In this document: positions 5,763 to 50,049 of the stretch, piece by piece
How the letters are laid out: the number at the start of each line of letters is the position of its first letter
How positions within the stretch are numbered: position 1 is the first letter of the stretch
Assembly: GCA_964412115.1 (NCBI GenBank)
Contig: CAYPMM010000001.1
Coordinates: forward strand, 764-64,763
Direction of reading: 5' to 3'
Origin: an uncultured Candidatus Saccharibacteria bacterium
GTDB lineage: Bacteria > Patescibacteriota > Minisyncoccia > HO2-45-28
DNA: 64,000 bases
Translations under genes and position numbers: made by a program
The notes under the pieces: generated by a model
Database searches by the model: none
Seen by the model: the letters and a program-made list of their open reading frames with translations, nothing else
Told to the model about the DNA's origin: nothing

Positions 5763-5797
5763 AAAAAACCCTCTTTTTAAGAGGGTTTTTTGAGCCA
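5763..5797 (-). terminator. intrinsic terminator of tal (hairpin overlaps stop codon)
   Basis: minus-strand RNA CCCUCUUAAAAAGAGGG followed by UUUUUUCUUU. Confidence 0.6.
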
Positions 5798-6520
5798 GTT
5801 TTCAAAGTTGGCCAAAAACTCTTTAATAACTTCATTTGTTTTAAAGAGCGAAACCATCTCCGGAAAAAGTTTGGGCTGTACGGTAACGATATGAGCGCCC
5901 GAAAGTCCGGCCATTTTCACGTCATTAGCCGAACGTATGCTTCCGGCGATTATTTCAACATCGGGATAAGATGCGTCTAAAAGCGAGCGCGTCGCGTAAA
6001 CGACTTCCCATGGGTCAAAATCTTTTTGGGTAAATGACTTTTTTTCAATGCCGTCTTTCAACTCCTTTTCAAACTTTCCGCCAAAGCCCCCGTCTCGGAT
6101 CCGGCCTACAAACAAACTGACATATCGCGCCCCAGCCGCGGCTCCCATAATCGCCTGATTAACGGTCATGCAACAAGTGCAATTTACCGAAAAGCCCTTT
6201 TTCTTTAACATTTTAATTGCTTTTAGTTCGTCCCGGCCAATTTGAACCTTAATGCTCAATTGGTCATATCCAAATGTCTTCCTGAAATGTTCCGCCTGTT
6301 TAACAATTTCGTCCGGGTCGGTTGAAAATACTTCAACGCTAAGATGAATTCCGTTTTGATGTTTTTCAATTAGCTTGATTATCTTTTTAATGTGCTCTTC
6401 AAAGGCGGATTTGGGCTCTTTGGCCAAAAGCGACGGATTGGTGGTAATTCCCCGCGCAAAACCGCGCTTAAGAGTTTCTTCAATGTCTTCCAGATTGGCG
6501 GTGTCAACGAAAAGCTTCAT
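5777..6520 (-). CDS. tal: transaldolase / fructose-6-phosphate aldolase family
   Basis: MKLFVDTANLEDI...GITTNPSL signature; start taken at internal ATG (6518-6520) preceded by GGAGG RBS rather than the track start 6628. Confidence 0.75.
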   Translation of the reverse strand: MKLFVDTANLEDIEETLKRGFARGITTNPSLLAKEPKSAFEEHIKKIIKLIEKHQNGIHLSVEVFSTDPDEIVKQAEHFRKTFGYDQLSIKVQIGRDELKAIKMLKKKGFSVNCTCCMTVNQAIMGAAAGARYVSLFVGRIRDGGFGGKFEKELKDGIEKKSFTQKDFDPWEVVYATRSLLDASYPDVEIIAGSIRSANDVKMAGLSGAHIVTVQPKLFPEMVSLFKTNEVIKEFLANFENWLKKPS

Positions 6521-6524
6521 GGTC

Positions 6525-7067
6525 TTAGCCCTCCTCTTTTTCAAGGCGCGAGACAAGTTCAGCCGCTTCCAGCAAATCTCCGACACAAAAATCGCTTTTG
6601 ACACCGGTATTATAAAAAGCCCGAACAAGAATCGTCCGGCAACCGGCTGATCTTGCGGCGGCCATATCGTTTTCGGTATCCCCGACCATGAAAGAACGGC
6701 TTAAATCAATATGCCATCTTTTTTGCGCGTTAAATAGCATTCCGGGCTTTGGTTTTTTACAGCCGCAATCTTCATCCCGGCCATGCCGGCAGATAAAAAC
6801 ATCATCAAACCCGAGCCTTTCAATTTCATCCTGAATTCTCATCCATTCTGCTTCCGACAGATGGCCGTATTTAACGTCAGGCTGATTGGTGACCATAATT
6901 CTCATAAAACCGGCAAGCTTTAAAATGCATAGCGCGTCTCCCGCACCGTCAAAAATACGCAGCTCTTCAAAAGAAAACGGTGCTGTTGGCAGATTAAAAC
7001 CCGGTCTTTGCACCGGATGATTTACCACGCCGTCGCGGTCTATAAATACCGCCTTTCGGCTATTCAT
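6525..7067 (-). CDS. gmhB: D-glycero-D-manno-heptose 1,7-bisphosphate phosphatase (HAD-IIIA)
   Basis: AVFIDRDGVVN and CRHGRDEDCGCKKPKPGM Zn-motif. Confidence 0.75.
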   Translation of the reverse strand: MNSRKAVFIDRDGVVNHPVQRPGFNLPTAPFSFEELRIFDGAGDALCILKLAGFMRIMVTNQPDVKYGHLSEAEWMRIQDEIERLGFDDVFICRHGRDEDCGCKKPKPGMLFNAQKRWHIDLSRSFMVGDTENDMAAARSAGCRTILVRAFYNTGVKSDFCVGDLLEAAELVSRLEKEEG

Positions 7068-7723
7068 CTTCCGGCTCCGGTGCTATATGCCGCCTGAATC
7101 AATTCTTTCAGCCGAAAAGCTATAAGATGATGCAAAACAACATGAAACGATTCAACCAAAGCCGTTGAATCCGCCGGCACCACGACGCAGACATTGACCA
7201 AATCTTTCATCGGTCCGCCGTCAAATCCGGATAAACCGAGAGTAAGACCGCTGCGGTCTTTGATATACTGCAAACCTTTAAGCAGATTTTGCGACCATTT
7301 TCCGCCCTTATCGGCTCCGCTTCCGCCGTGAACGCTTATGCCGATTCCGATTCCGCCTTGAACGTAGTGGGTATCAAGCCAAGCCGTAAAAAGGTCTTCT
7401 TTAGGACGGTCATTTACAATAGCGCTAACAAGCGGAATATTATCCCAGGGCGTCAGGGCCTTAAGGCCTCGCCAGCCGGGCATATCGGCAATCGTTTTTG
7501 ACAGGTCGGCGGCAAAGTGAGTGGCGGTTGAAGCCGACCCGCCGTTGCCCATAATATAAATCGGCAAATCTTTTTCCCACGCGCCGAACAAAATACGGAT
7601 CATTTCGGCAATCTCGCCTTTTTGGGCAACCAGCTTTTCGGCAACATGTTTAACTTCTTGTAAATGCGATAAAACAAGCGATCTGTCTACGGCATCAAAA
7701 TCAAAAACCCGTTCCTGCGCCAT
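7064..7723 (-). CDS. gmhA: sedoheptulose-7-phosphate isomerase (SIS domain)
   Basis: IYIMGNGGSASTATHFAADL SIS motif; overlaps gmhB by 4 nt. Confidence 0.75.
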   Translation of the reverse strand: MAQERVFDFDAVDRSLVLSHLQEVKHVAEKLVAQKGEIAEMIRILFGAWEKDLPIYIMGNGGSASTATHFAADLSKTIADMPGWRGLKALTPWDNIPLVSAIVNDRPKEDLFTAWLDTHYVQGGIGIGISVHGGSGADKGGKWSQNLLKGLQYIKDRSGLTLGLSGFDGGPMKDLVNVCVVVPADSTALVESFHVVLHHLIAFRLKELIQAAYSTGAGR

Positions 7724-7821
7724 TTAAACACCTCTTTGATGTCAAGCCTATTCTGCCATTGAGTCTATCACGCCTTAAGCCGAAAAAAACTTGTAGAAAA
7801 ATTAAATTCGTGTCGTTATTA

Positions 7822-7856
7822 AATAAAAATACCCCGCAACCGCGGGGTTTTTATTT
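7822..7856 (-). terminator. intrinsic terminator after hddA
   Basis: CCCCGCGGUUGCGGGG hairpin then U-rich tract on minus strand. Confidence 0.55.
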
Positions 7857-8842
7857 TATAGAGTAATAATGTCGGTTCTGGCGCCAAGCGCATCCAAATT
7901 AAAACTCATTTCGCGCATATTGAATTTTTGCAAGGCATCGCGAACCGACCGCTTAACATGGTCAGACGGGCAATAAAACATAAAATATCCTCCGCCTCCT
8001 GCGCCCATAATCTTTCCGCCGAGAGCCCCGGCCTTACGCGCCGTTTCATAAATTTCGTCCAGCCAGTCGTTGGTCATGCCTTGAGCCATCTGTCTTTTCA
8101 AAATCCAGTGCTGGTGCATTAAATCTCCGAAGCAATCAAGGTTTGAACGCGTAAAGGCGCTCAAAATCGCTCGGCCTATTTCCTTGGTTTGATGCTTCAG
8201 CCGTAAAACTTTTTCTTCGTTTTGGCTGGATAAAATAGGTTCGCTGTCCCGACGAATGCCGGTATAGAAAAACAGAGTATTTTCAAAAAAAGCATTGACC
8301 GTTTCCGGAACAATTATCGGCTTAATCACTTCTACCGACCCGTCCGTATCAATTTCCAAAACAACAAATCCGCCCAGAGCGCAGACATACGGGTCCTGCT
8401 TGCCGTCGGGCAAACCCAGATTTTGCGTCAGAATAAACGACCGCCTTGCCGCCTCTAAATTGCTCATGGTTTGGCCTTGATAAGCCGTAAGCCCCTTCAG
8501 GAGGGCCACGGAGCAGGCTCCGGATGAACCAAGGCCGGTTCCGGCAGGCGAATCGGCGCTAAAAGATATTAAAACACGGCCGTTGACACCGGTCATTTTA
8601 AGCGCTTCTCGCCCAATGGTGTGTTTTATTTTACGCGGCGAGGACTCCGATTCATAACGCGTATAGTGCATGTGGATATAGTCGTCGGATGCCGGACGCT
8701 TAAAAAAAACATCCATATATATGTCAATAGAGGCGGCAAATATGAATCCGCCGTATTTTTGGTAATAAGACGGCATATCCGTAGAACCGCCGCCGAGAGG
8801 CAGACGAAAAGGGACCCGGCTGAAAACGACGGGCGAGGCCAT
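7856..8842 (-). CDS. hddA: D-glycero-alpha-D-manno-heptose 7-phosphate kinase (GHMP kinase)
   Basis: FRLPLGGGSTD and GLGSSGACSVALL GHMP motifs; strong AGGGAGA RBS. Confidence 0.7.
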   Translation of the reverse strand: MASPVVFSRVPFRLPLGGGSTDMPSYYQKYGGFIFAASIDIYMDVFFKRPASDDYIHMHYTRYESESSPRKIKHTIGREALKMTGVNGRVLISFSADSPAGTGLGSSGACSVALLKGLTAYQGQTMSNLEAARRSFILTQNLGLPDGKQDPYVCALGGFVVLEIDTDGSVEVIKPIIVPETVNAFFENTLFFYTGIRRDSEPILSSQNEEKVLRLKHQTKEIGRAILSAFTRSNLDCFGDLMHQHWILKRQMAQGMTNDWLDEIYETARKAGALGGKIMGAGGGGYFMFYCPSDHVKRSVRDALQKFNMREMSFNLDALGARTDIITL

Positions 8843-8896
8843 TTTATTCTCCCTAATTTTTAGAAGTTTATTTAAGAACTCTAAAAATACTCTAGT

Positions 8897-10018
8897 TTAT
8901 TTTTCCGGCGGCGTCCAGCCGTTCTGCACTTCTTTTAAAATATTTTTGGCCGCCGAAACGCAGGTTATAATTTTACCGCTCAAAACCGAAAAACACCCCC
9001 GGCCGTGGCTGACAACGTCGGTCGGACGGATATCGGCGGATTTGGCCGAAAGGTCAACCGGCAATATGACGAACATTGACTCAACATATTCGGCGCCGCG
9101 TATCGCCGGAATCCACTTTGCGCATCTGGCCCGCATTTCCGGCCAGCGAGATTTTAACATTCCCAGTTTTTTTTCCAATGATGTGGCGCTGTTTTTTTGC
9201 GAATGGATTTCATGCACCGACAAAGGAACGTCGCCGAAAGTAAAAATATTTTTTCGGGCCGTCGGAATTAAAGTCGTAAACGGCCCGTCGACGACGGTTA
9301 TGGCGTATTTTTGTTTAACATTCAATTTCACCGCGATTATTTCTTTCAACCGAAACTCCAGTTTCTTTTTGGGAAAACCCAGCCAGCCGCAAAATTCATT
9401 GTAGTTGGCGTATGTCGCGTTAATAACGCAATCAAAAGCGTATTCTTTTCTTTTCCCTCCGGATTCAACGGTCAGAACTTTTTGACCGTCTTTGGAAAAT
9501 CGCGCGCCGAGAACTTTATGGTTGGGTTTAAAATTAATCTTGCCGTTATTATTCAGCCTGTTTTTTATAAGGCGTTTTAATTTTTCGTAGTCATAAACCG
9601 CCTCTTTTGTTCGGACGCACGCGTCAACCGAATCGGGGTTTAAAAATTCGGCGGGCGGATACTCCTTTTTGTGCCAGATATTATTTTTTTTGCAGTTGAA
9701 CAAAAAATCTTTCGCTGAAATTTTGGAATCCGCTTTAGCCACGCCGTAGAAACTGGGAAAATCATAAACGATCGCGTTTTTATAAAAAGACGTAAAATCG
9801 CTTGTCGCGGCTTTTATTTCCTTTATCATTTCGGAGCTTCTGGGATAATGAAAACCGGCATGATGCCTATACTGATTTTTTCTGGAAGCTTCGGAAAGTA
9901 TGCCGGAGTGTCTCTCAAATAAAGTAACCGGGTACTTCTTTCCCAAAATAAGGGCGCAGGTCGTCCCGAAAATTCCCCCGCCGATAATAGCGATACGCGG
10001 CTTTTTAATTTCCTTCAT
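8897..10018 (-). CDS. FAD/NAD(P)-binding oxidoreductase
   Basis: N-terminal IAIIGGGIFGTTCAL Rossmann dinucleotide motif. Confidence 0.5.
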   Translation of the reverse strand: MKEIKKPRIAIIGGGIFGTTCALILGKKYPVTLFERHSGILSEASRKNQYRHHAGFHYPRSSEMIKEIKAATSDFTSFYKNAIVYDFPSFYGVAKADSKISAKDFLFNCKKNNIWHKKEYPPAEFLNPDSVDACVRTKEAVYDYEKLKRLIKNRLNNNGKINFKPNHKVLGARFSKDGQKVLTVESGGKRKEYAFDCVINATYANYNEFCGWLGFPKKKLEFRLKEIIAVKLNVKQKYAITVVDGPFTTLIPTARKNIFTFGDVPLSVHEIHSQKNSATSLEKKLGMLKSRWPEMRARCAKWIPAIRGAEYVESMFVILPVDLSAKSADIRPTDVVSHGRGCFSVLSGKIITCVSAAKNILKEVQNGWTPPEK

Positions 10019-10946
10019 TTAACTTGTTTTCTTTTATTTCGCGGATGCTGTAAGGCGGGCGATTTGTGGAAGCGTAATAAATGGGAAGCAGAATCTCCGC
10101 GAGCAATCCCATCATAAAAAGCAAAACTCCCAAAATGGCAAAAAGGGTTCCGACCACCGGCAGAGGCGTTGCCGTAAAATCTTCAATGCCAAAGAGCCGT
10201 AAAATAACAGCTGTCCCGAACGCGAGCATTGAAAGAAAAATGGAGACGGCTCCCCATCCGCCAAAAAATCTCAAAGGTCTTGAAAAATACCGAATAAAAA
10301 AAACAACGCTTAATAAATCAAATCCTGTTTTTATCATTCTGGGGATGTTGGTTTTAGACTCGCCGAATTCCCTGAATTGGTGCGAAACGACAACCTCGCA
10401 TATTTTAGCGCCTCTCTCTTTGGCGATGGCCGGAAGAGACGCTTGCGCGTCTCCCAAAAGCCGGAAATCTTTAATAAAATCGCTACGGTACGCTTTTAAA
10501 CCGCATCCAAAATCGTGAAGGGGAACATCGAGCGCCACCCGCGCGGCATAATTCGCGACGCGGGAAAAAAGAACGCGCGACCATCGGTCCTTTCTTTCCT
10601 TTCGCCAGCCGGACACCGCGCCGCATCCTTCTGATATCTTTTCAAGAAATTTAGGAATGTCGGCCGGGTCGTTTTGGAGGTCGGCGTCCAATAAAATAAT
10701 ACTATCCCCTTTTGCTTCTTGAATGCCAACATCCAAAGCGATCGTTTCTCCGCAATTTCTTCGAAGAAAAATCATTTTAAGAGGCCGGAGATTTTCCATT
10801 TCTTTACGCGTTTTGTCCGTTGACGCGTCATCAACAAAAATAATTTCATAGGGCTCCGCTTGTCCCCGCATTGCGTCAACAATCCGGCGATGAAGCTCGC
10901 GGATGGTTTTTTCTTCATTGAAAACCGGCACAACGATAGAAATCAT
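10005..10946 (-). CDS. GT2 polyprenol-phosphate glycosyltransferase (DPM1/GtrB/ArnC-like) with C-terminal TM helices
   Basis: MISIVVPVFNEE...DDASTD...LDADLQND motifs, two C-terminal TM segments. Confidence 0.7.
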   Translation of the reverse strand: MISIVVPVFNEEKTIRELHRRIVDAMRGQAEPYEIIFVDDASTDKTRKEMENLRPLKMIFLRRNCGETIALDVGIQEAKGDSIILLDADLQNDPADIPKFLEKISEGCGAVSGWRKERKDRWSRVLFSRVANYAARVALDVPLHDFGCGLKAYRSDFIKDFRLLGDAQASLPAIAKERGAKICEVVVSHQFREFGESKTNIPRMIKTGFDLLSVVFFIRYFSRPLRFFGGWGAVSIFLSMLAFGTAVILRLFGIEDFTATPLPVVGTLFAILGVLLFMMGLLAEILLPIYYASTNRPPYSIREIKENKLNEGN

Positions 10947-10957
10947 ATTATCTAATT

Positions 10958-10992
10958 AAACAAAAAAGCGAGGCTGTGTCAACCTCGCTTAA
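10958..10992 (-). terminator. intrinsic terminator after radical SAM gene
   Basis: AAGCGAGG-loop-CCUCGCUU hairpin followed by UUUUUUGUUU on minus strand. Confidence 0.55.
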
Positions 10993-10996
10993 CGGT

Positions 10997-12520
10997 TCAT
11001 TTTAATATATTTTCCGCTCTGGCGCGTATGCGTTCTTCAACATACTCTTTCGGATTCATTTCGCGCCACGCCCGGTCTCTTAACTCCACGATTCGTTCCG
11101 GCGGCACCGTCGTGTTATACATGACGGCGTTGACGAAATTCATGGAATCGGGATCAAAATCGCGGTCTAAATATCCCTCGGCGATCGCCATGTCATAAAG
11201 CTGACTGCCCGGAAAGGGAATGGGTATAAAAGGAGAGCAGTAAGCAGCCCCGGCGTCCACAAGCCTTTTTCCCAATTCAACGCTTTGAAGAATTTCTTCT
11301 TCCGTTTCGTCGGGAAAACCGATCATCATGTTGATGGGGCATTTAATCCCGAGACGGGTCGCGATGCGAACGAGCTCGACTACGTCCAAAGTGCTCAAAT
11401 TTAGTTTGGCGGTCGCGTACTTATCCAAAATGCGCTGTGAGCCGGATTCCACCGGAAAAGAAATCTCATCAAAACCGGCGTCTCGCAAAAGTTCCAGATA
11501 CTGGGCGTCAATTTCCAACTTGCCGTTTTTTCCCCGCCTTTGAAAATGAACGAGGTTCACGCCGTTGATTGCAGCTATTCGCAACCCCATGCCAAGCACA
11601 TTTTCAAATATGGTTTTTACGCGCGATTTATTCGCAAGCAGGCTGTCATCTTCAAAAAAAAGCTTATAAACCCCGAGGTCGCGCAGTCTCCTTACTTCCT
11701 CAAGCACTCTGGCAACCGACTTTATCCGATAGGCGCCGATATTTCCGCTTCCAAGCGGGTCTTCTTTTTCCTTGGAGATATGGCAATAGGCGCACCGAAA
11801 AGGGCATCCGCGAGAGGTCATAATAGGCGCGTACCTTACTTTGGGCGCAAACTCCACGCCGGATCTGGAAGAAACAATGCGGTCGTAATGCCTAAACGGC
11901 AGTTTTTCCCACGTGGGAAACGGCAGTTCGTCAAGATTCATGTGCGTATCGCACGGCGCAACCGGATTTGTAACGCGCCGCTTTTCCGCCTGATACGTGA
12001 TGCCCGAAACACGGCCGTAACCCAGCCCGGCAACCCACGCCTCAACAATCTTAACAAAAATTTTTTCTCCTTCGGTAAGGCAGATGATATCCACCGCTCC
12101 GCTCTCAAAAAAACGGCCCGGCAAATTTTTAGCGTTCGTTCCGCCGGACACAACCAAAATATCCGGATTAACGTCTTTTGCGGTTACGGCGACTTCCAGG
12201 GCCATTCTGGTTTGAGGAGTAAAGTTTGAATTGATGCCGATGATGTCGTATTTGCCGTCGGCAATGAATGTTCGAAGCCGTTCTTGAGACATCCCTATGC
12301 GCGTAAGCCCGTTCGGCTGGCGCACCGCGCGATAAAACGTGTCGTCCAAATTATCCGTCTCCGCTCCGACCGACGCGTCAAGAATATCGGCTTCGAATCC
12401 GGCCCGTTCAAGCGCGCCGGCAAGATATAAAAGACCAAGCGATCCGTCGGGTCTTGGCTGTTCAATTGACGCCAGTTGGTTTGGAGGATAAATAAGCAGA
12501 ATTTTCGGGTTTTTCCTCAC
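10997..12520 (-). CDS. B12-binding radical SAM protein (class B)
   Basis: N-terminal cobalamin-binding-like domain; CPFRCAYC radical SAM cluster motif. Confidence 0.75.
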   Translation of the reverse strand: MRKNPKILLIYPPNQLASIEQPRPDGSLGLLYLAGALERAGFEADILDASVGAETDNLDDTFYRAVRQPNGLTRIGMSQERLRTFIADGKYDIIGINSNFTPQTRMALEVAVTAKDVNPDILVVSGGTNAKNLPGRFFESGAVDIICLTEGEKIFVKIVEAWVAGLGYGRVSGITYQAEKRRVTNPVAPCDTHMNLDELPFPTWEKLPFRHYDRIVSSRSGVEFAPKVRYAPIMTSRGCPFRCAYCHISKEKEDPLGSGNIGAYRIKSVARVLEEVRRLRDLGVYKLFFEDDSLLANKSRVKTIFENVLGMGLRIAAINGVNLVHFQRRGKNGKLEIDAQYLELLRDAGFDEISFPVESGSQRILDKYATAKLNLSTLDVVELVRIATRLGIKCPINMMIGFPDETEEEILQSVELGKRLVDAGAAYCSPFIPIPFPGSQLYDMAIAEGYLDRDFDPDSMNFVNAVMYNTTVPPERIVELRDRAWREMNPKEYVEERIRARAENILK

Positions 12521-12568
12521 GCGCCTTCTCCATTCAATTTTTAACGTTCAAACGCTAAAAACAGCATA

Positions 12569-13243
12569 TCATTTTAAAAAGGGTCCGTCCATGTCTTCCG
12601 GATAACTGAAGGCGATATTTTTTGTTCCTTTTACCATAAAAACGGGGTGTTTTTTTACAAATTTATCCATCATGGACGTAAGATAGTACTCGCCATTTTT
12701 ATGTTTTACGGGTTTGTATTTAAAAATGTCGGTATTTACCGCCATCACTCCGGCAGCGACAAAATTGGACGAGAAGCGTTTGGGTTTTTCAATAACGCCG
12801 AGAATACGGCCTTCTTTAGAAATTTTAGGGATACCGGATTGGCTTGAATCCGTCATTTCGCGGCAAAGCCAGCTGAATTCGTGTTTTAAACATTTTCGCA
12901 TCTGATTTTTAGCCGGCATTTCATCTCCGTAAATAATCAAAAAACGTTCGCCTCGTTTTTTAAAAAAACTCTTAGCCAGCAAAACCGCGTAAGCCGTCCC
13001 ATTAAGTTTTTTTTGAACGACGTACTTTATTGTTTTTCCTTGATAAAAATTGCCGTATCGTTTTTTTATCTTTCCGCCCTTATAGCCGATAACAATTATA
13101 ATTTCATCCACCGATTTCGGCAAAACATCAAAGATATTATCCAGAAGTGTTTTTTTGCCTATTTTTAAAAGCGGCTTTGGCGTATCGTCGGTCAAATGGC
13201 GCATCCTTTTTCCGCGCCCCGCGGCCAAAATTACCGCTTTCAT
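12569..13243 (-). CDS. hddC: sugar-1-phosphate nucleotidyltransferase (heptose-1-P guanylyltransferase-like)
   Basis: MKAVILAAGRGKRMRHLTDDTPKPLL motif; context with gmhA/hddA/gmhB. Confidence 0.65.
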   Translation of the reverse strand: MKAVILAAGRGKRMRHLTDDTPKPLLKIGKKTLLDNIFDVLPKSVDEIIIVIGYKGGKIKKRYGNFYQGKTIKYVVQKKLNGTAYAVLLAKSFFKKRGERFLIIYGDEMPAKNQMRKCLKHEFSWLCREMTDSSQSGIPKISKEGRILGVIEKPKRFSSNFVAAGVMAVNTDIFKYKPVKHKNGEYYLTSMMDKFVKKHPVFMVKGTKNIAFSYPEDMDGPFLK

Positions 13244-14352
13244 TCCCTGCCTTCTTTATAAAATTCTATAATACTGCCGGCGATATATTTTATTTCCTCT
13301 TCTTCAAGCTCGGGAAAAATCGGCAGGGATAAAATTTCGTCAACCGCCGATTCCGCGGCAGGAAAATCGCCTTTCTTGTGGCCGAGGCCCTTATAAACCG
13401 GCTGAAGATGAATTGGAACCGGATAATGCACCAGGGTCGGGATCTTTTTTTCGCCTAAATACTCCATCAGAGCGTTTCTGTCGCGAACTCTTATGACATA
13501 CTGATGAAAAACCGGCTCGGCGTAATCGGCAACTGTCGGAATCGCTACTGAAGTTCCGCCAAGCAATTTATTATACAGTTCGGCGTTTTTTCTTCTTTTT
13601 TCGCCCCATTCTTCGAGGTGTTTCAATTTAACTCTCAATATGGCCGCTTGTATGGTGTCTAACCTGGAGTTAAATCCGATAATCTGGAATAAATCTTTTT
13701 GAGTTCTCCCGAAGTCCCTAAGAAATCTGACTTTGCCCGCCAACTCGTCGCTATTGGTAACAACAGCGCCTCCGTCTCCGTAAGCGCCCAAATTCTTGCT
13801 GGGGTAAAAACTGAACACGGCGATATCGCCAAGCCCCCCGACCCGCCTGCCTTTATGCCGCGCGCCGTGCGCTTGGCAGGCGTCTTCCAAAATTTTCAAG
13901 TTGTGTTTTTGAGCGATTGATTTAATTTCGTCCATATCCGCGGGCTGTCCGTAAAGATGAACCGGCAAAATAACTTTTGTGCGCGGGGTAATACTCGCCT
14001 CAATTTTTTTAGGGTCAATATTAAAAGTTTTCGGGTCAATGTCGGAAAAAACCGGCGTTGCGCCCAGCATTGATATGCTCGTAGACGTTGAAACGAAAGA
14101 ATGCGGAGTGGTTATGACCTCGTCTCCGGCCCCTACGCCCAGCGCATGCAAAGACAAAAAAAGAGCGTCCGTGCCGGAGGCGACTCCAACGCAATGTTTC
14201 GCCTCGCAAAAATCGGCGAAGTCTTTTTCAAAATTTTTCACCTCGTCTCCAAGAATAAATTCGTGTTTATCAAGCGCCCCTTTAACGGCGGCGTCAATTT
14301 CATCTTTATATTTGCGGTATTGGCGCCCTAAATCGACAAATTCAATCATCAA
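13240..14352 (-). CDS. DegT/DnrJ/EryC1/StrS sugar aminotransferase (PLP)
   Basis: Full-length family pattern, GDEVITTPHSFVST, SFYPSKNLGAYGDGG. Confidence 0.8.
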   Translation of the reverse strand: MMIEFVDLGRQYRKYKDEIDAAVKGALDKHEFILGDEVKNFEKDFADFCEAKHCVGVASGTDALFLSLHALGVGAGDEVITTPHSFVSTSTSISMLGATPVFSDIDPKTFNIDPKKIEASITPRTKVILPVHLYGQPADMDEIKSIAQKHNLKILEDACQAHGARHKGRRVGGLGDIAVFSFYPSKNLGAYGDGGAVVTNSDELAGKVRFLRDFGRTQKDLFQIIGFNSRLDTIQAAILRVKLKHLEEWGEKRRKNAELYNKLLGGTSVAIPTVADYAEPVFHQYVIRVRDRNALMEYLGEKKIPTLVHYPVPIHLQPVYKGLGHKKGDFPAAESAVDEILSLPIFPELEEEEIKYIAGSIIEFYKEGRE

Positions 14353-14391
14353 CGAAACATTACCATATAAAACCGAAAAATGTCCATACTT

Positions 14392-16131
14392 TTAAAATCC
14401 ATAAACCCTGATATCACCGCTCTCGTAAAGTACTGCCAGGTTTTTTACAAAGTCGGCTACCTGCGCGGGTACTTCTCCTTGAATTAAGACGTAGTCCAAT
14501 CTGTATCTCGATAATTCCGATTTAAAATCTTTTTTTAAAAAATCCCGATAGTTTTGCGGCAGTTCCGCAAGTCTTTTTTCCAATTTTTCATCGCTAAAAT
14601 CGGGAAAGTCTTTGACATTATAAATCCCTTTCCAGTTGGCGGCAAGGCGCGTTCGTGGTTCTTGTTTATTGCCGGCCATATAATCTTCAATATTTTGAGC
14701 CGTAACTCCTTTTAGGAACAGGAGCGTAAAATAATTATGCAAAATTCGCTCTTCCGGCATCAGCGAGAGCGCCGCGGTTGCTTCATATAAATTGCAGTGA
14801 GTAAAAGCCGGAATGGCGTAGTCAAAACTGCTCAATCCATCCCATTCGCTAACCGCAAGCACAACGCAGTCTTTTTCTTGCCGATTAAGCCAGTCAAACA
14901 GAGCGGAATAATTTTGCAGATCGGCATAGCGTGAAGAAAATTGCGCGTATGTTATTGCCTGCGTGTAAATACCGAACAGCACAGACGAAACCGCGGCGGC
15001 AAATACCAAGACCGCCCAAAAATACCTGCTTTTTTCGCGGATAACGTTGTGGGCCAAAACCATAAACGCGACTATGGCAATCGGTATGGTGTACTGTACA
15101 AAATGATACGGCCAGACGGTCCGGCCGGTAATGATTTGCTGGTTATAAGCCACGAGACCTCCGAGCATCATTGATAAACAAAACCAATACCAGTTTCGGT
15201 TAAAGCCTTCTTTAAATTTGTCCGCAAAAAACCAGGCGGTAATAAGATAAATCGCGATAACCGCCAGAAGAAGTTTATTAAACACGGGATAGTGGGTATA
15301 AAAAAGACCGCTTCGCAGAACCGAATCATAAAACCACGGACTAAGGCTCGCCCGCCAGGCGTTTACCCAATAAGGCAGCGAGAGCAGGGCTCCGGACAGA
15401 AGAACAGCCGACAGCCGTATCGCGGTCAAATATTCTTTTTTAAAAAAATAAAACAGAATTAAAACGCCGGTTATGGACGCCGCCAGTCCCCAGCTAAAAA
15501 AATAACTGCCGATCATCAAAGCTAGAAAAAGAGCCGCGCCCGCCGTGGCGGATCGATATCGTTTGGTGTTCTGCGTTATCGCCAAAACTAAAATCAAAAA
15601 GGAAAATAAAAAGATTGCGCCAAGAACCGGATTGACCGGACGAGACCAAATTAAAAAATCCCCGCCAATACTGCCGCGGCCGGATAAAAAATCAATAACC
15701 GAACGATAGTCCACCAAATCATATCCCAGCGTTACCAATAATGCTCCTGAAGCGGCGTTTATTTTTCCGCCCCAATCCTGCTTGACGGACAATTTCCAGA
15801 TTAAAAAATAAATCAGCAGAAAAAGCACGAACGGCAAATAAAACCGGCTGGCGAGTAAAATATTAACCGGCGAAACATCCAAAAGCATGGCGGGCAAGGC
15901 GTAAAAAAACTCGCCCGTCGGAGGAGTGACCGGCGGCTGATTTTTATATTCAAAAAAGAAAGGAGAGCCAAGAGACGGATGTCCGTCCACAATCTCCTGA
16001 ATCCTGGCCAAATACTCATCTTCGTTGGCGGTCTGCATTATCGGTATGCCGCCGTATTCGTCTCCCAACGACAGAATGAAAATAACGTTCGGCGCCGCGT
16101 AAAGAACTCCGACCAAAAACGCTATCGCCAA
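14392..16131 (-). CDS. large polytopic membrane protein (possible GT-C-like glycosyltransferase), function unknown
   Basis: 579 aa, >10 hydrophobic segments; no recognisable catalytic motif. Confidence 0.4.
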   Translation of the reverse strand: MAIAFLVGVLYAAPNVIFILSLGDEYGGIPIMQTANEDEYLARIQEIVDGHPSLGSPFFFEYKNQPPVTPPTGEFFYALPAMLLDVSPVNILLASRFYLPFVLFLLIYFLIWKLSVKQDWGGKINAASGALLVTLGYDLVDYRSVIDFLSGRGSIGGDFLIWSRPVNPVLGAIFLFSFLILVLAITQNTKRYRSATAGAALFLALMIGSYFFSWGLAASITGVLILFYFFKKEYLTAIRLSAVLLSGALLSLPYWVNAWRASLSPWFYDSVLRSGLFYTHYPVFNKLLLAVIAIYLITAWFFADKFKEGFNRNWYWFCLSMMLGGLVAYNQQIITGRTVWPYHFVQYTIPIAIVAFMVLAHNVIREKSRYFWAVLVFAAAVSSVLFGIYTQAITYAQFSSRYADLQNYSALFDWLNRQEKDCVVLAVSEWDGLSSFDYAIPAFTHCNLYEATAALSLMPEERILHNYFTLLFLKGVTAQNIEDYMAGNKQEPRTRLAANWKGIYNVKDFPDFSDEKLEKRLAELPQNYRDFLKKDFKSELSRYRLDYVLIQGEVPAQVADFVKNLAVLYESGDIRVYGF

Positions 16132-16217
16132 AGCCAGCCAGTGTTTTTTAAAAAAAATATTTGTAATGATGTTTTGCCAATTAATAAAATAACGGGTACT
16201 ATTTTAGGTATTATAGC

Positions 16218-17204
16218 ATGAAACCGACCGTACGGCTAAAAAAAATAAGATGGGGCATCATAGGTCTGGGGGCGCAGGCAAACAATATCGCGCGCTCAAT
16301 CATCGGTTCCAAAAACGGAGTCCTTTTCGCCGTAGCCGGTAAAAGTCCGCGGCGAGCAAAGCAGTTTGCGGAAAAATACGGCGCCGCCCATTCCGGCGCA
16401 ATCCGCGGTCTGCTCAATAATTCCCAAGTTGATGCCGTATTTATCGCCTCCCCCAGCTACGAACACGCCAAACATGTTTTATTGGCGTCTGCGGCAAAAA
16501 AACATATTCTTTGCGAAAAACCGCTTGCTCTCTCCGTTAAAGACGGGCGCCGAATCGCGTCTGCGGTTAAAAAAAACCGCGTGCGTCTCGCGGTCGGATT
16601 TCATTTGCGCCATCACCCGGACATTCAAAAGACAAAAGCCCTGATAAGTTCCGGAAAACTGGGGATAATTTCGCTGATCCAAGCGCAGTGGTGTGTCGGG
16701 CGTCCCGGCGCCGCAAAACTCCCCCCCTTGCCGGCACACATGAAATGGCGCGAAAATTTCAAAAAATCAGGCGGCGGGGCCGTTATCGCCCGCGGAACTC
16801 ACCTGTTTGACCTCATCTCGTATCTTACCGGAAAAGAGCCCATTTCGGTTTCGGCGCTAACCGACGGCGGAAAAAAATCAAAAATCGACACAACCGCGGT
16901 CGGAATTTTGGAATATAAAAAATTTTTTGCCACAATCATAACCAGCAGGATCATTCCGCGACTTGACGACTCAATCGGCATTTACGGGAACAAGGGCCAT
17001 ATTGAGCTTCGGGGTGTCATGGCGCCAAACGGTAAAAAAAATTTGTGGCAAATGGAAATTGAAGATTTCGGAGACGCGATTTTGCGAAAAAAAACAATGA
17101 AAAGCGCCTCTCTCAAGGACGGTCTTATGAACGTTGCGGTCACCGAAGCCTTTGTCAAGTCGGCCTACACGGGAAAAAAAACAAAAATAAAAACTATTTT
17201 TTAG
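16218..17204 (+). CDS. Gfo/Idh/MocA family oxidoreductase (WbpB-like)
   Basis: IRWGIIGLGAQANN...EKPLALS motifs. Confidence 0.75.
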   Translation: MKPTVRLKKIRWGIIGLGAQANNIARSIIGSKNGVLFAVAGKSPRRAKQFAEKYGAAHSGAIRGLLNNSQVDAVFIASPSYEHAKHVLLASAAKKHILCEKPLALSVKDGRRIASAVKKNRVRLAVGFHLRHHPDIQKTKALISSGKLGIISLIQAQWCVGRPGAAKLPPLPAHMKWRENFKKSGGGAVIARGTHLFDLISYLTGKEPISVSALTDGGKKSKIDTTAVGILEYKKFFATIITSRIIPRLDDSIGIYGNKGHIELRGVMAPNGKKNLWQMEIEDFGDAILRKKTMKSASLKDGLMNVAVTEAFVKSAYTGKKTKIKTIF

Positions 17205-18216
17205 GATTGGATGAATACCATTCGTAAGTCTTTTTAAGTCCCTCGTCCAAAGAAACTTCCGGTTTCCAGCCGGTCAAACTTTGAAGCTTGGAAATATCGG
17301 CCAGGCGTCTTTTTACGCTCCCCTCCGGCGCGGATTTGATGTCCAGTTCTTTCGGCCGCCAGCCCGCAACCTCGAACATTTTCTCAGCCAAATCTTTTAT
17401 CGTAATTTCTTGAGTATCGCCGATATGCACCGTTTCAATAGGCTGCAAATCCGTTTTTTTGGAATCCATGAGCATTCGCATCGCTCGCGCCGCGTCATCA
17501 ATGTGGCAAAAAGTGCGGGTGTCGTCGGCGCCATAAATCTGGAATGGTTCGGTTTTTCGGGCAATCCGCGCGGAAAATTCGGGAATAACATGATTATATC
17601 CGGCTCTCGGCCCGTAAAAATTATGGGGTCTTACGATTAGCGCCCGGAAATTATATTTTGACGCGTAATGAATCACAAAAAGTTCGCCGGCGAGTTTACT
17701 TGCCGCGTAAGACCAGCGGGGGTTATAGGGGTCGTCTACGACCAACGACACTTTTTCGGGTGTAGGAATTGGCAGCTTTCCAAACGCGTTCAAACCCCCG
17801 GCATAGGCCTCATTAGATGAGGTGAAACAAAATTTACCTTCGCTATTTTTATTTTTAAACCATTCAAGCATATAAACCAAAGACAGGGTATTAATTCGCA
17901 GCGTTTCGTGGGGCATATCATAAAAGTTTTTGGTGCCGTTAATTGCGGCCAAATGATAAACATGGCCATAGCCCGCGCCCAATTTTTCGAAAGACGCCGG
18001 ATTGGTTAAATCCAGTTCCAAAAAACGCACCCGGGAATCGTTTAAAAGTTTTTTAAAGTCGCTGTCGGCCCTTCCGCGCTGGAAGTTATCAACCAAAACT
18101 ATTTCGGCATCGTTGCCATATTCTTTTAAAAGATGTGTCGCCAAATGACAGCCGATAAAACCGGCCCCGCCGGTAATAAGAATTTTTTTGTTCTTTTGCG
18201 CCTCCGCACTTGACAT
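17194..18216 (-). CDS. NAD-dependent epimerase/dehydratase (extended SDR; 4,6-dehydratase-like)
   Basis: KILITGGAGFIGCHL, YAASKLAGE catalytic YxxxK. Confidence 0.75.
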   Translation of the reverse strand: MSSAEAQKNKKILITGGAGFIGCHLATHLLKEYGNDAEIVLVDNFQRGRADSDFKKLLNDSRVRFLELDLTNPASFEKLGAGYGHVYHLAAINGTKNFYDMPHETLRINTLSLVYMLEWFKNKNSEGKFCFTSSNEAYAGGLNAFGKLPIPTPEKVSLVVDDPYNPRWSYAASKLAGELFVIHYASKYNFRALIVRPHNFYGPRAGYNHVIPEFSARIARKTEPFQIYGADDTRTFCHIDDAARAMRMLMDSKKTDLQPIETVHIGDTQEITIKDLAEKMFEVAGWRPKELDIKSAPEGSVKRRLADISKLQSLTGWKPEVSLDEGLKKTYEWYSSNPKK

Positions 18217-27316: not shown

Positions 27317-27342
27317 TATCGCTTATTTTAAATCGGCTGGCG

Positions 27343-28659: not shown

Positions 28660-28666
28660 AATATAA

Positions 28667-29857: not shown

Positions 29858-29865
29858 ATCGCGGT

Positions 29866-49959: not shown

Positions 49960-49975
49960 GTTCTCTTATTCGCAC

Positions 49976-50033
49976 GCCTGCCTGTCGGTAGGCAGGAATT
50001 AGGGATATATTAAAACGTGTTGATATATCAACA
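49976..50033. promoter_or_regulatory. hairpin CCTGCC-N8-GGCAGG and 16-bp perfect palindrome TGTTGATATATCAACA upstream of paralog 3
   Basis: palindrome overlaps a possible TTGATA-16-TATATC promoter on minus strand. Confidence 0.4.
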
Positions 50034-50049
50034 TATTTTGTTTTAAGAA

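What the first reader, a model, noticed from the sequence alone, without database searches (positions are those of the whole stretch)
5777..18216. Complete GDP-D-glycero-alpha-D-manno-heptose pathway plus tailoring enzymes predicting a modified heptose glycan
gmhA (SIS), hddA (GHMP kinase), gmhB (HAD phosphatase) and hddC (nucleotidyltransferase) together specify the GDP-D,D-heptose route known from S-layer/capsule systems. A transaldolase immediately upstream could supply sedoheptulose-7-P. In the same cluster are an extended-SDR dehydratase-like enzyme, a TylCIII-type sugar C-methyltransferase, a DegT aminotransferase, a class-B (B12) radical SAM enzyme and further methyltransferases. These families normally act on NDP-4-keto-6-deoxy sugars, so the cluster plausibly makes a 6-deoxy, C-methylated and/or aminated heptose. 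That chemistry is not well described and is not reported for CPR bacteria.
Basis: partly seen in the sequence, partly recalled or inferred. Interest (0 to 1): 0.6.

Follow-up and report, generated by a model that had tools for sequence, protein, structure and literature searches.

The report
Transaldolase-started sugar-nucleotide surface glycosylation module
The genes are real, but they form a conserved, uncharacterised pathway in which a dedicated transaldolase starts a 7- or 8-carbon activated sugar that is passed to a lipid carrier and then to the cell surface, so calling it the classical GDP-manno-heptose route is only partly justified.

Summary
The C-methyltransferase and a second methyltransferase lie just outside the stated coordinates. 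Four genes were overlooked: a flavoprotein, a GT2, a 579-aa membrane protein and a GFO oxidoreductase.

None of the four "heptose" proteins reaches its NCBIfam equivalog cutoff. The nucleotidyltransferase resembles UDP/dTDP-type enzymes more than HddC. The SIS isomerase has Asp/Glu where GmhA has Glu65/Gln172, plus an insertion in the phosphate loop.

The transaldolase is an integral pathway enzyme, not a housekeeping helper.
- Module-linked transaldolases separate from 60 housekeeping ones in 200/200 bootstraps.
- They accompany two non-homologous activation modules.
- Some relatives are fused to a GHMP kinase or to a nucleotidyltransferase.

The only characterised pathway I could name with this five-enzyme set is the lincosamide GDP-octose route; the known hygromycin heptose cluster has no transaldolase. 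Chain length (C7 or C8) is unresolved.

Verdict: a new variant of a known kind, of moderate to high interest.

The parts
5777..6520 (-). Module-specific transaldolase (TalC type), the proposed first committed step
   Evidence: Pfam TAL_FSA 132 bits, but TIGR00875 136 vs cutoff 246. The catalytic Asp6, Glu63, Lys91, Asn113, Thr115, Ser135, Phe137, Arg140, Ser194 and Arg196 are conserved. Phe137 and Glu63 mark the transaldolase type rather than the FSA type. Module-linked TALs separate from 60 housekeeping TALs in 200/200 NJ bootstraps. Relatives are fused to a GHMP kinase (P0439) and to a nucleotidyltransferase (P0384).
6525..7067 (-). HAD-IIIA sugar bisphosphate phosphatase (GmhB-like)
   Evidence: Best PDB hits are GmhB (3l8e, 2gmw; 68 bits). 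The DxDG, TNQ, K and GDxxxD motifs and the CxH...CxC zinc loop are present. NCBIfam GmhB 106 vs cutoff 178. Present in 13/14 related loci.
7064..7723 (-). SIS-domain ketose/aldose phosphate isomerase (GmhA/HygP-like, subtype A)
   Evidence: Best PDB hit is C. jejuni GmhA 1tk9, E 7e-18. TIGR00441 64 vs 209 bits. It has Asp at the GmhA Glu65 position and Glu at the Gln172 position, and a 9-aa insertion in the phosphate loop. Both features are found in 22/22 aligned TAL-linked SIS proteins and in the L089 sequence.
7856..8842 (-). GHMP anomeric sugar-phosphate kinase (HddA/WcbL-like)
   Evidence: Best PDB hits are the heptokinases 4usk, 3k85 and 4n3o (104-120 bits). The GHMP motifs PAGTGLGSS, GAGGGG and GKQDPY are present. 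NF049969 121 vs 600 bits. It belongs to a large Patescibacteria clade at 50-79% identity.
8897..10018 (-). FAD-dependent dehydrogenase/oxidase of the glycine-oxidase/GlpD fold, function unknown
   Evidence: Pfam DAO. AF2 model pLDDT 92.5. Foldseek top hits are glycine oxidase and glycerol-3-phosphate dehydrogenase, TM 0.70-0.77. Homologs occur fused to GFO_IDH_MocA or to GT2. Found in 7/14 related loci. Its stop overlaps the GT2 gene.
10005..10946 (-). Polyprenyl-phosphate glycosyltransferase (GT2, ArnC/GtrB type)
   Evidence: Glycos_transf_2 101 bits. Best NCBIfam hits are ArnC (158) and PgfS (120). The sequence shows two C-terminal hydrophobic helices. Found in 13/14 related loci.
10997..12520 (-). 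Cobalamin-binding-domain radical SAM enzyme (class B)
   Evidence: B12-binding 54 bits and Radical_SAM 65 bits, both above gathering. CPFRCAYC motif. Best NCBIfam hit is a P-methyltransferase family, 125 vs 575 bits. Best PDB hits are AprD4 and TokK. Orthologs at 58-67% identity in 7/14 related loci.
12569..13243 (-). Sugar-1-phosphate nucleotidylyltransferase, nucleotide not established
   Evidence: NTP_transferase 81 bits. Arch_glmU 144, AglF 120, HddC 71.5 vs cutoff 300. PDB best hit is ST0452; Yersinia HddC scores only 34 bits. LAAGRGKRM and Q-x4-GTA motifs.
13240..14352 (-). DegT/PseC-type sugar aminotransferase
   Evidence: PF01041 428 bits; PseC 281 and ArnB 223 bits, both below cutoff. 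Orthologs at 62-64% identity in L003 and L005, weaker in L009 and L014.
14392..16131 (-). New GT-C-fold glycosyltransferase family (CPR-restricted, no Pfam)
4938..5732 (-). Membrane-anchored class I SAM methyltransferase, last gene of the block
   Evidence: Methyltransf_11 59 bits. Hydrophobic C-terminus. Orthologs in 8/14 related loci.
16218..17204 (+). GFO/IDH/MocA NAD-dependent sugar oxidoreductase (divergently transcribed; loosely associated)
   Evidence: Only weak counterparts in the CPR type I loci (28-32% identity). However, the GFO family recurs beside GHMP in L006, L007, L064 and L089.
17194..18216 (-). Extended SDR (epimerase, decarboxylase or dehydratase not resolved); probably not part of the core module
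   Evidence: PDB: UDP-Glc 4-epimerase-like, UXS and RmlB all at about 100 bits. Conserved only in L008. It sits beside a UGDH-family gene at 18910-20118.
3700..4962 (+).
   Evidence: Methyltransf_13 and Methyltransf_14 domains. Counterparts in L001 (46%) and L009 (38%) only.
18274..18849 (+). Nudix NDP-sugar/ADP-compound hydrolase
   Evidence: NUDIX 33 bits; NudE-like 55 bits. A Nudix gene lies inside the module in L003.

Best explanation
The minus-strand block 16131->4938 is one functional module. It builds a nucleotide-activated higher-carbon (C7 or C8) sugar and delivers it to the cell surface through a lipid carrier.

Proposed steps (all inferred from family, synteny and fold):
1. A dedicated transaldolase joins a C3 unit from F6P or S7P to an aldose phosphate. 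E4P would give sedoheptulose-7-P. R5P would give octulose-8-P, as LmbR does.
2. The SIS isomerase converts the ketose phosphate to an aldose phosphate.
3. The HddA-like GHMP kinase phosphorylates C1.
4. The GmhB-like HAD phosphatase removes the terminal phosphate.
5. The nucleotidyltransferase makes the NDP-sugar. The nucleotide is not established and looks more UDP/dTDP-like than GDP-like.
6. The sugar is tailored by the B12-radical SAM enzyme, and in this genome also by the DegT aminotransferase, the flavoprotein and a membrane methyltransferase.
7. The ArnC/GtrB-like GT2 transfers it to polyprenyl phosphate.
8. After flipping, the new GT-C enzyme transfers it to an extracytoplasmic acceptor.

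Shown here: gene content, conservation, the specialised transaldolase clade, the gene fusions and the GT-C fold.
Inferred: every substrate and product.

I put heptose and octose at roughly equal odds (about 40% each).
For: - Families and motifs of the five core enzymes.
- The set TAL+HAD+SIS+GHMP+NTP+GT2 recurs in 14 other CPR loci. It also occurs in Micrarchaeota, Marinimicrobia and a cultured Rhizobium jaguaris.
- Module-linked TALs separate from 60 housekeeping TALs in 200/200 bootstraps. They carry subfamily-specific changes next to catalytic residues.
- The same TAL clade also serves a non-homologous activation module (RpiB~cytidylyltransferase-like fusion + PfkB + cupin) in Acidobacteria and Saccharibacteria.
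- A second TAL lineage has been recruited to the same module in L007 and L089.
- TAL-GHMP and TAL-nucleotidyltransferase fusion proteins exist.
- The hygromycin-B-type heptose cluster has GHMP, SIS, HAD and a nucleotidyltransferase but no TAL.
- The lincosamide octose pathway uses transaldolase LmbR, isomerase LmbN, kinase LmbP, phosphatase LmbK and guanylyltransferase LmbO (PMC4351081).
- The GT2 is ArnC-like.
- Flavoprotein-GT2 and flavoprotein-GFO fusions exist.
- Genes are tightly spaced or overlapping.
Against: - No enzyme activity is known for any member of these clades.
- All four 'heptose' proteins are far below their equivalog cutoffs, so even the reaction types are inferred by analogy.
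- I could not compare them with Lmb proteins because no sequences were available. I found no LmbR-like actinobacterial protein among 20 G+C-rich candidates drawn from the 150 best TAL representatives.
- The B12-radical SAM, flavoprotein, DegT and GT-C genes are each present in only 4-8 of 14 related loci, so part of the tailoring and export scheme may be lineage-specific.
- Two terminator-like hairpins lie inside the block.
- No stand-alone flippase gene lies in the block.
Confidence: 0.65

Rival explanations
1. This is a classical GDP-D-glycero-alpha-D-manno-heptose pathway (GmhA/HddA/GmhB/HddC). The transaldolase only boosts S7P supply. SDR, C-methyltransferase, DegT and radical SAM enzymes then convert GDP-heptose to a 6-deoxy, C-methyl and/or amino heptose.
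For: - The best solved relatives of the SIS, GHMP and HAD proteins are GmhA, HddA/WcbL and GmhB.
- S7P is the canonical transaldolase product, and all catalytic residues are retained.
- Heptoses are far commoner in glycans than octoses (general knowledge).
- KEGG-style annotation already calls a heptose module in Paceibacteria (PMC9166423).
Against: - All equivalog cutoffs are missed by a wide margin.
- The nucleotidyltransferase is not HddC-like.
- The SIS protein has Asp/Glu instead of Glu65/Gln172 and an enlarged phosphate loop in every TAL-linked homolog examined, while the five TAL-less SIS proteins examined have the canonical loop.
- S7P is made by transketolase, so a dedicated, diverged, sometimes fused transaldolase is unexplained, including in Acidobacteria and Rhizobium, which (general knowledge, not checked here) have a full pentose phosphate pathway.
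- The known hygromycin heptose cluster lacks a TAL.
- There is no GMD-type dehydratase. The SDR is not conserved with the module.
Confidence: 0.25
2. An octose pathway. The transaldolase acts like LmbR (R5P + C3 donor -> octulose-8-phosphate). The module makes an NDP-octose that is oxidised, aminated and methylated, giving a cell-surface counterpart of the lincosamine pathway.
For: - The five-enzyme gene set matches LmbR/N/P/K/O, and downstream classes (epimerase, oxidoreductases, aminotransferase) match LmbM/L/Z/S (PMC4351081; PMC12945683).
- The TAL clade is specialised and sometimes fused.
- Type II modules carry an RpiB domain and, in L048, an AraD-like class II aldolase/epimerase. These suggest a pentose-phosphate supply.
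- The SIS phosphate-loop insertion correlates with TAL linkage.
Against: - There is no sequence comparison with Lmb proteins.
- No LmbR-like protein was found among the candidates checked from the nearest 150 TAL representatives, so the module TAL is probably not an LmbR ortholog.
- RpiB could itself be the ketose/aldose isomerase.
- Octoses other than Kdo-type acids are very rare in bacterial glycans (general knowledge).
Confidence: 0.3
3. A mosaic of unrelated modules. UGDH + SDR + DegT + ArnC-like GT2 + GT-C form an Arn-like aminopentose lipid-carrier system. The heptose genes feed a different glycosyltransferase elsewhere in the island.
For: - A UGDH-family gene lies at 18910-20118.
- The SDR scores as UXS/ArnA-like as well as it scores as RmlB.
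- DegT hits ArnB (223 bits) and the GT2 hits ArnC (158 bits).
- The GT-C fold includes ArnT among its matches.
Against: - GT2, DegT and the GT-C gene travel with TAL/SIS/GHMP/HAD/NTP in loci that lack the UGDH and this SDR (L003, L005).
- GT2 overlaps the flavoprotein gene, which lies 54 nt upstream of the kinase gene.
- The SDR lies beyond a divergent gene.
Confidence: 0.1
4. A hexose bypass. The transaldolase yields F6P, and the SIS/GHMP/HAD/NTP enzymes make NDP-mannose (or another hexose) through a 1,6-bisphosphate, replacing phosphomannomutase in a reduced genome.
For: The chemistry is analogous. CPR genomes lack many standard enzymes, and PMC7143001 shows gaps in CPR sugar metabolism.
Against: - The same module occurs in Rhizobium and Acidobacteria, which need no such bypass.
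- The nearest solved kinases are heptokinases.
Confidence: 0.05

Closest known systems
GDP-D-glycero-alpha-D-manno-heptose pathway (GmhA, HddA, GmhB, HddC) of S-layer and capsule systems
   Same: The four reaction types, and the protein superfamilies for three of the four enzymes, are the same. The nearest solved structures of the SIS, GHMP and HAD proteins are these enzymes.
   Different: - All scores are far below the equivalog cutoffs.
- The SIS catalytic pair is Asp/Glu, not Glu/Gln, and the phosphate loop is enlarged.
- The nucleotidyltransferase is nearer to GlmU-N/ST0452.
- A dedicated transaldolase, a B12-radical SAM enzyme, a GT2 and a GT-C are integral here. To my knowledge they are absent from the classical clusters.
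[quoted passage not shown]
   Same: As far as I know, it is the only characterised pathway that combines a dedicated transaldolase with a GmhA-like isomerase, GHMP kinase, HAD phosphatase and nucleotidyltransferase, followed by epimerase, oxidoreductase and aminotransferase steps (PMC4351081, PMC12945683).
   Different: - It is a secondary-metabolite pathway of Streptomyces; here the module sits in a surface-glycan island with a lipid-carrier GT2 and a GT-C.
- Orthology could not be tested.
- No LmbR-like sequence was found among the candidates checked from the nearest TAL relatives.
- Lmb has no B12-radical SAM enzyme in the sugar branch (my own recollection).
Hygromycin B heptose genes (an SIS isomerase presumed to be HygP, a GHMP kinase, a HAD phosphatase, a GalT-like nucleotidyltransferase)
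   Same: The SIS protein of the hygromycin-type cluster (L090) shares the Asp/Glu pair. Its GHMP kinase is 34% identical to the window protein. HygP acts on S7P (PMC10948575).
   Different: It has no transaldolase, a canonical phosphate loop and a different nucleotidyltransferase family.
Three-component lipid-carrier glycosylation (GtrB/ArnC GT2 + flippase + GT-C such as ArnT, PMT, YfhO)
   Same: An ArnC-like GT2 with C-terminal hydrophobic helices sits with a GT-C-fold enzyme in one block.
   Different: - The GT-C enzyme belongs to an undescribed CPR-restricted family with no Pfam model.
- There is no stand-alone GtrA in this block.
- A flavoprotein is translationally coupled to the GT2, and in some organisms fused to it.

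Membership tests
GDP-D-glycero-alpha-D-manno-heptose pathway | GmhA: scores as a sedoheptulose-7-phosphate isomerase equivalog | tested here: not met
   TIGR00441 63.9 bits vs cutoff 209.45. The other GmhA models score 33-50 bits vs cutoffs of 265-320.
GDP-D-glycero-alpha-D-manno-heptose pathway | GmhA catalytic/metal residues Glu65, Gln172 and His180 (E. coli numbering, from my own knowledge) | tested here: not met
   The His residues are kept. Glu65 is Asp and Gln172 is Glu in the window protein and in all 22 aligned TAL-linked SIS proteins. The same pair is present in the hygromycin-cluster SIS.
GDP-D-glycero-alpha-D-manno-heptose pathway | HddA: GHMP kinase motifs, with heptokinases as nearest characterised relatives | tested here: met
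   Motifs are present. Best PDB hits are WcbL 4usk, 3k85 and 4n3o at 104-120 bits, against fucokinase at 54-58 bits.
GDP-D-glycero-alpha-D-manno-heptose pathway | HddA: equivalog score | tested here: not met
   NF049969 120.8 bits vs cutoff 600.
GDP-D-glycero-alpha-D-manno-heptose pathway | GmhB: HAD-IIIA motifs and the CxH...CxC zinc loop | tested here: met
   DRDG, TNQ, KKPKPG, GDTEND and C-R-H...C-G-C are present. The equivalog cutoffs are nevertheless not reached: 106 vs 178, and the alpha-specific model 65 vs 250.
GDP-D-glycero-alpha-D-manno-heptose pathway | HddC: a guanylyltransferase specific for heptose-1-phosphate | tested here: not met
   NF049965 71.5 vs 300 bits. Arch_glmU (144), AglF (120) and ST0452 score higher, and Yersinia HddC scores 34 bits. 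A Gln precedes the GTA motif, as in U/T-specific enzymes (motif interpretation from my own knowledge).
GDP-D-glycero-alpha-D-manno-heptose pathway | Substrate S7P and product GDP-D,D-manno-heptose | not testable with these tools
   Needs enzyme assays.
Lincosamide-type NDP-octose pathway (LmbR/N/P/K/O) | A dedicated transaldolase encoded with the isomerase, kinase, phosphatase and nucleotidyltransferase | tested here: met
   Synteny in 14 CPR loci plus Micrarchaeota, Marinimicrobia and Rhizobium. The TAL clade separates in 200/200 bootstraps. TAL-GHMP and TAL-NT fusions exist.
Lincosamide-type NDP-octose pathway (LmbR/N/P/K/O) | Sequence orthology to the Lmb/Ccb proteins | tested here: inconclusive
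No Streptomyces or LmbR-like entry was found among 20 G+C-rich candidates drawn from the 150 nearest TAL representatives.
Lincosamide-type NDP-octose pathway (LmbR/N/P/K/O) | Ribose-5-phosphate as acceptor and octulose-8-phosphate as product | not testable with these tools
   There is only indirect evidence: RpiB and AraD-like genes in type II modules.
Polyprenyl-phosphate GT2 + GT-C surface glycosylation | A GT-A GT2 of the ArnC/GtrB/DPMS type with C-terminal membrane helices | tested here: met
   Best NCBIfam hits are ArnC (158), PgfS (120) and AglJ (79 bits), all below equivalog cutoffs. Two hydrophobic C-terminal segments are visible in the sequence.
Polyprenyl-phosphate GT2 + GT-C surface glycosylation | GT-C fold of the final transferase | tested here: met
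Polyprenyl-phosphate GT2 + GT-C surface glycosylation | A GtrA-type flippase | tested here: inconclusive
   None lies in the block. A GtrA domain is fused to a GT4 at 21627-23384. Stand-alone GtrA genes lie inside the module in L003 and L005.
Class B (cobalamin-dependent) radical SAM methyltransferase | An N-terminal B12-binding domain plus a CX3CX2C radical SAM core | tested here: met
   PF02310 54.2 bits (cutoff 32.1), PF04055 65.4 bits (cutoff 29.5), and a CPFRCAYC motif.
Class B (cobalamin-dependent) radical SAM methyltransferase | Methyl transfer to the sugar | not testable with these tools
   The best NCBIfam families are methyltransferases but far below cutoff (125 vs 575). The best solved relative, AprD4, is a diol dehydratase.
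   YAASK is present. The motif reads S-N-E (Asn for Asp), by motif alignment from my own knowledge of RmlB. PDB hits for epimerase, UXS and RmlB are all at about 100 bits. TIGR01181 140 vs 365 bits.

The most novel reading that the evidence does not exclude
The module-specific transaldolase is an octulose-8-phosphate (or other non-S7P ketose phosphate) synthase. Patescibacteria, and also some DPANN archaea, Marinimicrobia, Acidobacteria and Rhizobium, would then decorate their surfaces with a radical-SAM-modified or aminated octose, delivered through polyprenyl phosphate by a previously unrecognised GT-C family. That would be a widespread primary-metabolism counterpart of the lincosamine pathway.
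Probability: 0.3. Interest if true: 0.85.

Novelty: new variant of a known kind. Interest (0 to 1): 0.6.

Why it matters
- CPR bacteria are episymbionts, so their surface glycans probably mediate host contact, yet none has been chemically defined.
- This module is conserved across many Paceibacteria-type genomes and reaches into other phyla. It includes three uncharacterised protein families: a transaldolase subclade, a GlpD-fold flavoprotein that is sometimes fused to GT2 or GFO, and a GT-C family with no Pfam model.
- If the transaldolase makes something other than S7P, automated "heptose biosynthesis" calls in CPR metabolic reconstructions, and counts of this gene as the pentose-phosphate-pathway transaldolase, would be wrong.
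- A related module (with a different transaldolase lineage, 28% identical to the window's) exists in cultivable Rhizobium jaguaris, so the question is directly testable.

Tried and rejected
- Exact look-up of the window kinase and its 100% match P0001 found no contig.
- The two JACS papers on LmbR/N and LmbK/O are not held. Their content is cited through PMC4351081 and my own recollection.
- I looked for LmbR among the relatives of the window transaldolase. This used a full representative search plus two cluster look-ups on 20 G+C-rich candidates. It found only environmental 'transaldolase' entries, such as Dehalococcoidia. Orthology to LmbR is therefore neither shown nor likely.
- I first read the Glu65->Asp / Gln172->Glu swap in the SIS protein as evidence against S7P. 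I dropped this when the hygromycin-cluster SIS (S7P-using HygP type) showed the same pair.
- I considered that the flavoprotein might be a UDP-galactopyranose-mutase-like pyranose/furanose mutase. Its model matches glycine oxidase and GlpD instead, so I rejected this.
- I considered an Arn-like aminopentose reading. I kept it only as a minor rival because UGDH and the SDR do not travel with the module.
- No tRNA genes are present.
- Promoter and terminator counts are not above the shuffled expectation.

Full report
**Observation.** On the minus strand, a tightly packed block runs from 16131 to 4938, with overlaps of 4-14 nt or gaps of 4-132 nt. In transcription order it encodes:
- a 579-aa membrane protein (14392-16131);
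- DegT (13240-14352);
- NTP_transferase (12569-13243);
- a B12-binding/radical SAM enzyme (10997-12520);
- an ArnC-like GT2 (10005-10946);
- a DAO-family flavoprotein (8897-10018);
- a GHMP kinase (7856-8842);
- a SIS protein (7064-7723);
- a HAD-IIIA phosphatase (6525-7067);
- a transaldolase (5777-6520; the ATG at 6520 is the plausible start);
- a membrane-anchored methyltransferase (4938-5732).

The SDR (17194-18216) lies beyond a divergently transcribed GFO/IDH/MocA gene (16218-17204). The TylCIII-type C-methyltransferase (3700-4962) is outside the stated interval. The block sits in a roughly 39-kb glycosylation island with many GT4, PMT_2 and GT2 genes. The island lies in a chromosomal context that includes SecDF, ThyA and Tmk. 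Homologs show the organism is a Patescibacteria (Paceibacteria/Parcubacteria-type) bacterium.

**Are the four genes the GDP-D,D-heptose pathway?** The reaction types fit.
- The nearest solved structures of the SIS, GHMP and HAD proteins are GmhA, the heptokinases WcbL/HddA, and GmhB.
- The GHMP motifs, the HAD motifs and the GmhB/HisB zinc loop are intact.

But none of the four reaches its NCBIfam equivalog cutoff: 64/209, 121/600, 106/178 and 71.5/300 bits.
- The nucleotidyltransferase scores better against archaeal GlmU-N (144), AglF (120) and the UDP/dTDP enzyme ST0452. Against Yersinia HddC it scores only 34 bits.
- It carries LAAGRGKRM and a Gln before GTA. From my own knowledge of GlmU and RmlA, these fit pyrimidine nucleotides better than GTP. 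So 'GDP' is not supported.

The SIS protein differs from GmhA in two ways.
- It has Asp and Glu where GmhA has Glu65 and Gln172.
- It has a 9-residue insertion in the phosphate-binding loop.

Both features are present in all 22 aligned TAL-linked SIS proteins, which fall into two subtypes, and in the Rhizobium jaguaris one. The Asp/Glu pair also occurs in the SIS gene of a hygromycin-B-type cluster (L090, identified by APH(7'')-Ia). HygP turns S7P into an altro-heptose derivative (PMC10948575). The pair therefore does not exclude S7P, but it weakens the 'manno' assignment. The loop insertion is absent from the five TAL-less SIS proteins I examined: C. jejuni and B. pseudomallei GmhA, L090, L091 and L088.

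**The transaldolase is the key.** Contexts of kinase homologs always showed a TAL_FSA gene with the HAD, SIS, GHMP and NTP genes. I then scanned species-representative genomes with a transaldolase alignment and ran tblastn of the window proteins on the 80 resulting loci.
- Every transaldolase at least 54% identical to the window protein sits with HAD, SIS, GHMP, NTP and GT2.
- Sixty transaldolases at 27-40% identity (mostly 27-36%) have none of these neighbours. They come from Thaumarchaeota, Gemmatimonadota, Acidobacteriota and a Microgenomates CPR genome, among others.
- In a neighbour-joining analysis the module-linked transaldolases separate from all 60 in 200/200 bootstraps.
- The catalytic residues are identical in both groups and are of the transaldolase type, not the FSA type.
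- The module clade has fixed substitutions beside them: V114C, F118M, P136L, A193G, H200D, D210H and L227K.

Transaldolases 44-49% identical to the window protein serve a different, non-homologous activation module in two Acidobacteria and one Saccharibacteria genome. That module comprises an RpiB~cytidylyltransferase-like fusion, a PfkB kinase and a cupin/PMI-like protein. L048 also has an AraD-like class II aldolase.

A second transaldolase lineage (60% identical between L007 and L089, 28% to the window protein) occupies the same position in GFO-GHMP-NTP-SIS-HAD-TAL modules. These occur in a CPR genome and in Rhizobium jaguaris.

Among the 150 nearest representatives in 1.8 billion proteins, one protein fuses the transaldolase to a GHMP kinase and another fuses it to a cytidylyltransferase-like domain.

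Together these results show that a transaldolase reaction is a built-in step of the pathway.

**Heptose or octose?** S7P is produced by transketolase (textbook knowledge), so a dedicated transaldolase is hard to justify as an S7P supply. This holds especially in Acidobacteria and Rhizobium. The hygromycin heptose cluster lacks one, and to my knowledge so do the capsule and S-layer heptose clusters.

As far as I know, the only characterised pathway with the same five enzymes is the lincosamide amino-sugar branch. [quoted passage not shown] LmbM, LmbL, LmbZ/CcbZ and LmbS/CcbS then act on it (PMC4351081; PMC12945683). From my recollection of Sasaki et al. 2012, LmbR uses F6P or S7P as donor and ribose-5-phosphate as acceptor.

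The RpiB and AraD-like genes of the type II modules would fit a pentose-phosphate acceptor. Against this, I could not obtain Lmb sequences, and I found no LmbR-like protein among the candidates I checked from the nearest transaldolase relatives. RpiB could also be the isomerase itself. I therefore leave chain length open, at roughly 40% heptose, 35-40% octose and the rest other.

**Which tailoring and export genes belong?** Across 14 related CPR loci (with Pfam-called genes):

| Gene | Loci with an ortholog | Identity |
|---|---|---|
| GT2 | 13 | varies |
| Membrane methyltransferase | 8 | not summarised |
| B12-radical SAM | 7 | 58-67% |
| Flavoprotein | 7 | not summarised |
| 579-aa protein | 4-6 | 25-53% |
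| DegT | 4 | 33-64% |
| C-methyltransferase | 2 | 38-46% |
| This SDR | 1 | 76% |
| This GFO | 2 (weak) | 28-32% |

- *Flavoprotein.* Its model (pLDDT 92.5) has the glycine-oxidase/GlpD fold. It occurs fused to GT2 or to GFO domains elsewhere, which ties it to the same substrate. Its reaction is unknown.
- *Radical SAM enzyme.* It has a genuine B12-binding domain and a CX3CX2C motif. Its nearest solved relative is the dehydratase AprD4, and its best family models are methyltransferases far below cutoff. C-methylation is plausible but not established.
- *SDR.* It scores alike as epimerase, UXS or RmlB. It has Asn where RmlB has the catalytic Asp, and it sits next to a UGDH-family gene. It more likely belongs to a uronic-acid or pentose branch of the island.

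**Comparison and novelty.** The logic (ketose phosphate -> aldose phosphate -> 1,omega-bisphosphate -> 1-phosphate -> NDP-sugar) is known from the GDP-heptose and GDP-octose pathways. Lipid-carrier delivery is known from the Arn, Gtr and PMT systems. The following appear to be undescribed:
- the conserved combination;
- the specialised transaldolase clade and its fusions;
- the SIS subtypes;
- the coupled flavoprotein;
- the B12-radical SAM partner;
- the GT-C family.

I rate the finding a new variant of a known kind, interest 0.6.

Noticed in passing
L018:7182-10669, L020:7227-10669, L048:6337-10726: A second, non-homologous 'type II' module surrounds the same transaldolase clade in two Acidobacteria and one Saccharibacteria genome. 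It comprises an RpiB~cytidylyltransferase-like fusion, a PfkB kinase, a cupin/PMI-like protein and a conserved ~124-aa unknown protein. L048 also has an AraD-like class II aldolase.
   Followed up: partly
P0439 (562 aa), P0384 (357 aa): Natural fusion proteins exist: transaldolase + GHMP kinase, and transaldolase + cytidylyltransferase-like domain.
   Followed up: partly
L089 (Rhizobium jaguaris CCGE525 plasmid pRCCGE525c, 967539-986507): 8040-12528: A cultured alphaproteobacterium carries GFO-GHMP-NTP-SIS-HAD-TAL. Its transaldolase is 60% identical to that of CPR locus L007. This part of the record has no annotation.
   Followed up: partly
L088 (Rhizobium bangladeshense plasmid p4) and more than 50 other Rhizobium plasmids: A related cluster without a transaldolase: SIS, GT2, SDR, a 650-aa HAD-IIIA fusion, a GHMP kinase, an NAD(P) oxidoreductase and a 510-aa FAD oxidoreductase. 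Its function is apparently unassigned.
   Followed up: no
window 10966-10990 and 7831-7848 (- strand): Two terminator-like hairpins lie in intergenic gaps inside the block: an 11-bp stem plus T-run between the radical SAM and GT2 genes, and a 7-bp GC-rich stem between GHMP and SIS. They may split the block into three transcription units or act as attenuators. Overall terminator counts are not above chance.
   Followed up: no
window 40791-42803, 43986-45476, 46043-47749 (- strand): Two of these large genes encode TrwB/TraG/VirD4-like coupling ATPases. The first and third carry a treble-clef zinc-finger domain; the third has no ATPase hit.
   Followed up: no
window 23400-31200: An AsnB-type amidotransferase is followed by three PMT_2 GT-C genes, a GT2 and a GT4. 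The AsnB and GT4-GtrA genes are also neighbours of the module in L001, and AsnB also in L006.
   Followed up: no
window 39107-40417; 35120-35692; 33374-35080; 48277-51393: A PKD + lamin-tail-domain protein (likely at the surface), a CYTH-domain protein, and several large ORFs with no Pfam match.
   Followed up: no
L005:4314-5840 and 8331-9863; L003:6415-7932 and 14919-16418: Some related loci carry two B12-radical SAM genes in the module. L007 carries two GHMP kinases plus teichoic-acid-type Glyphos_transf genes.
   Followed up: no
P0251, P0256, P0265, P0267, P0269 (GFO~DAO); P0275, P0278 (DAO~GT2): The flavoprotein family occurs as fusions with a GFO/IDH/MocA domain or with a GT2 domain. Unfused homologs extend to Omnitrophica, Dehalococcoidales, Elusimicrobiota and SAR324.
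   Followed up: partly
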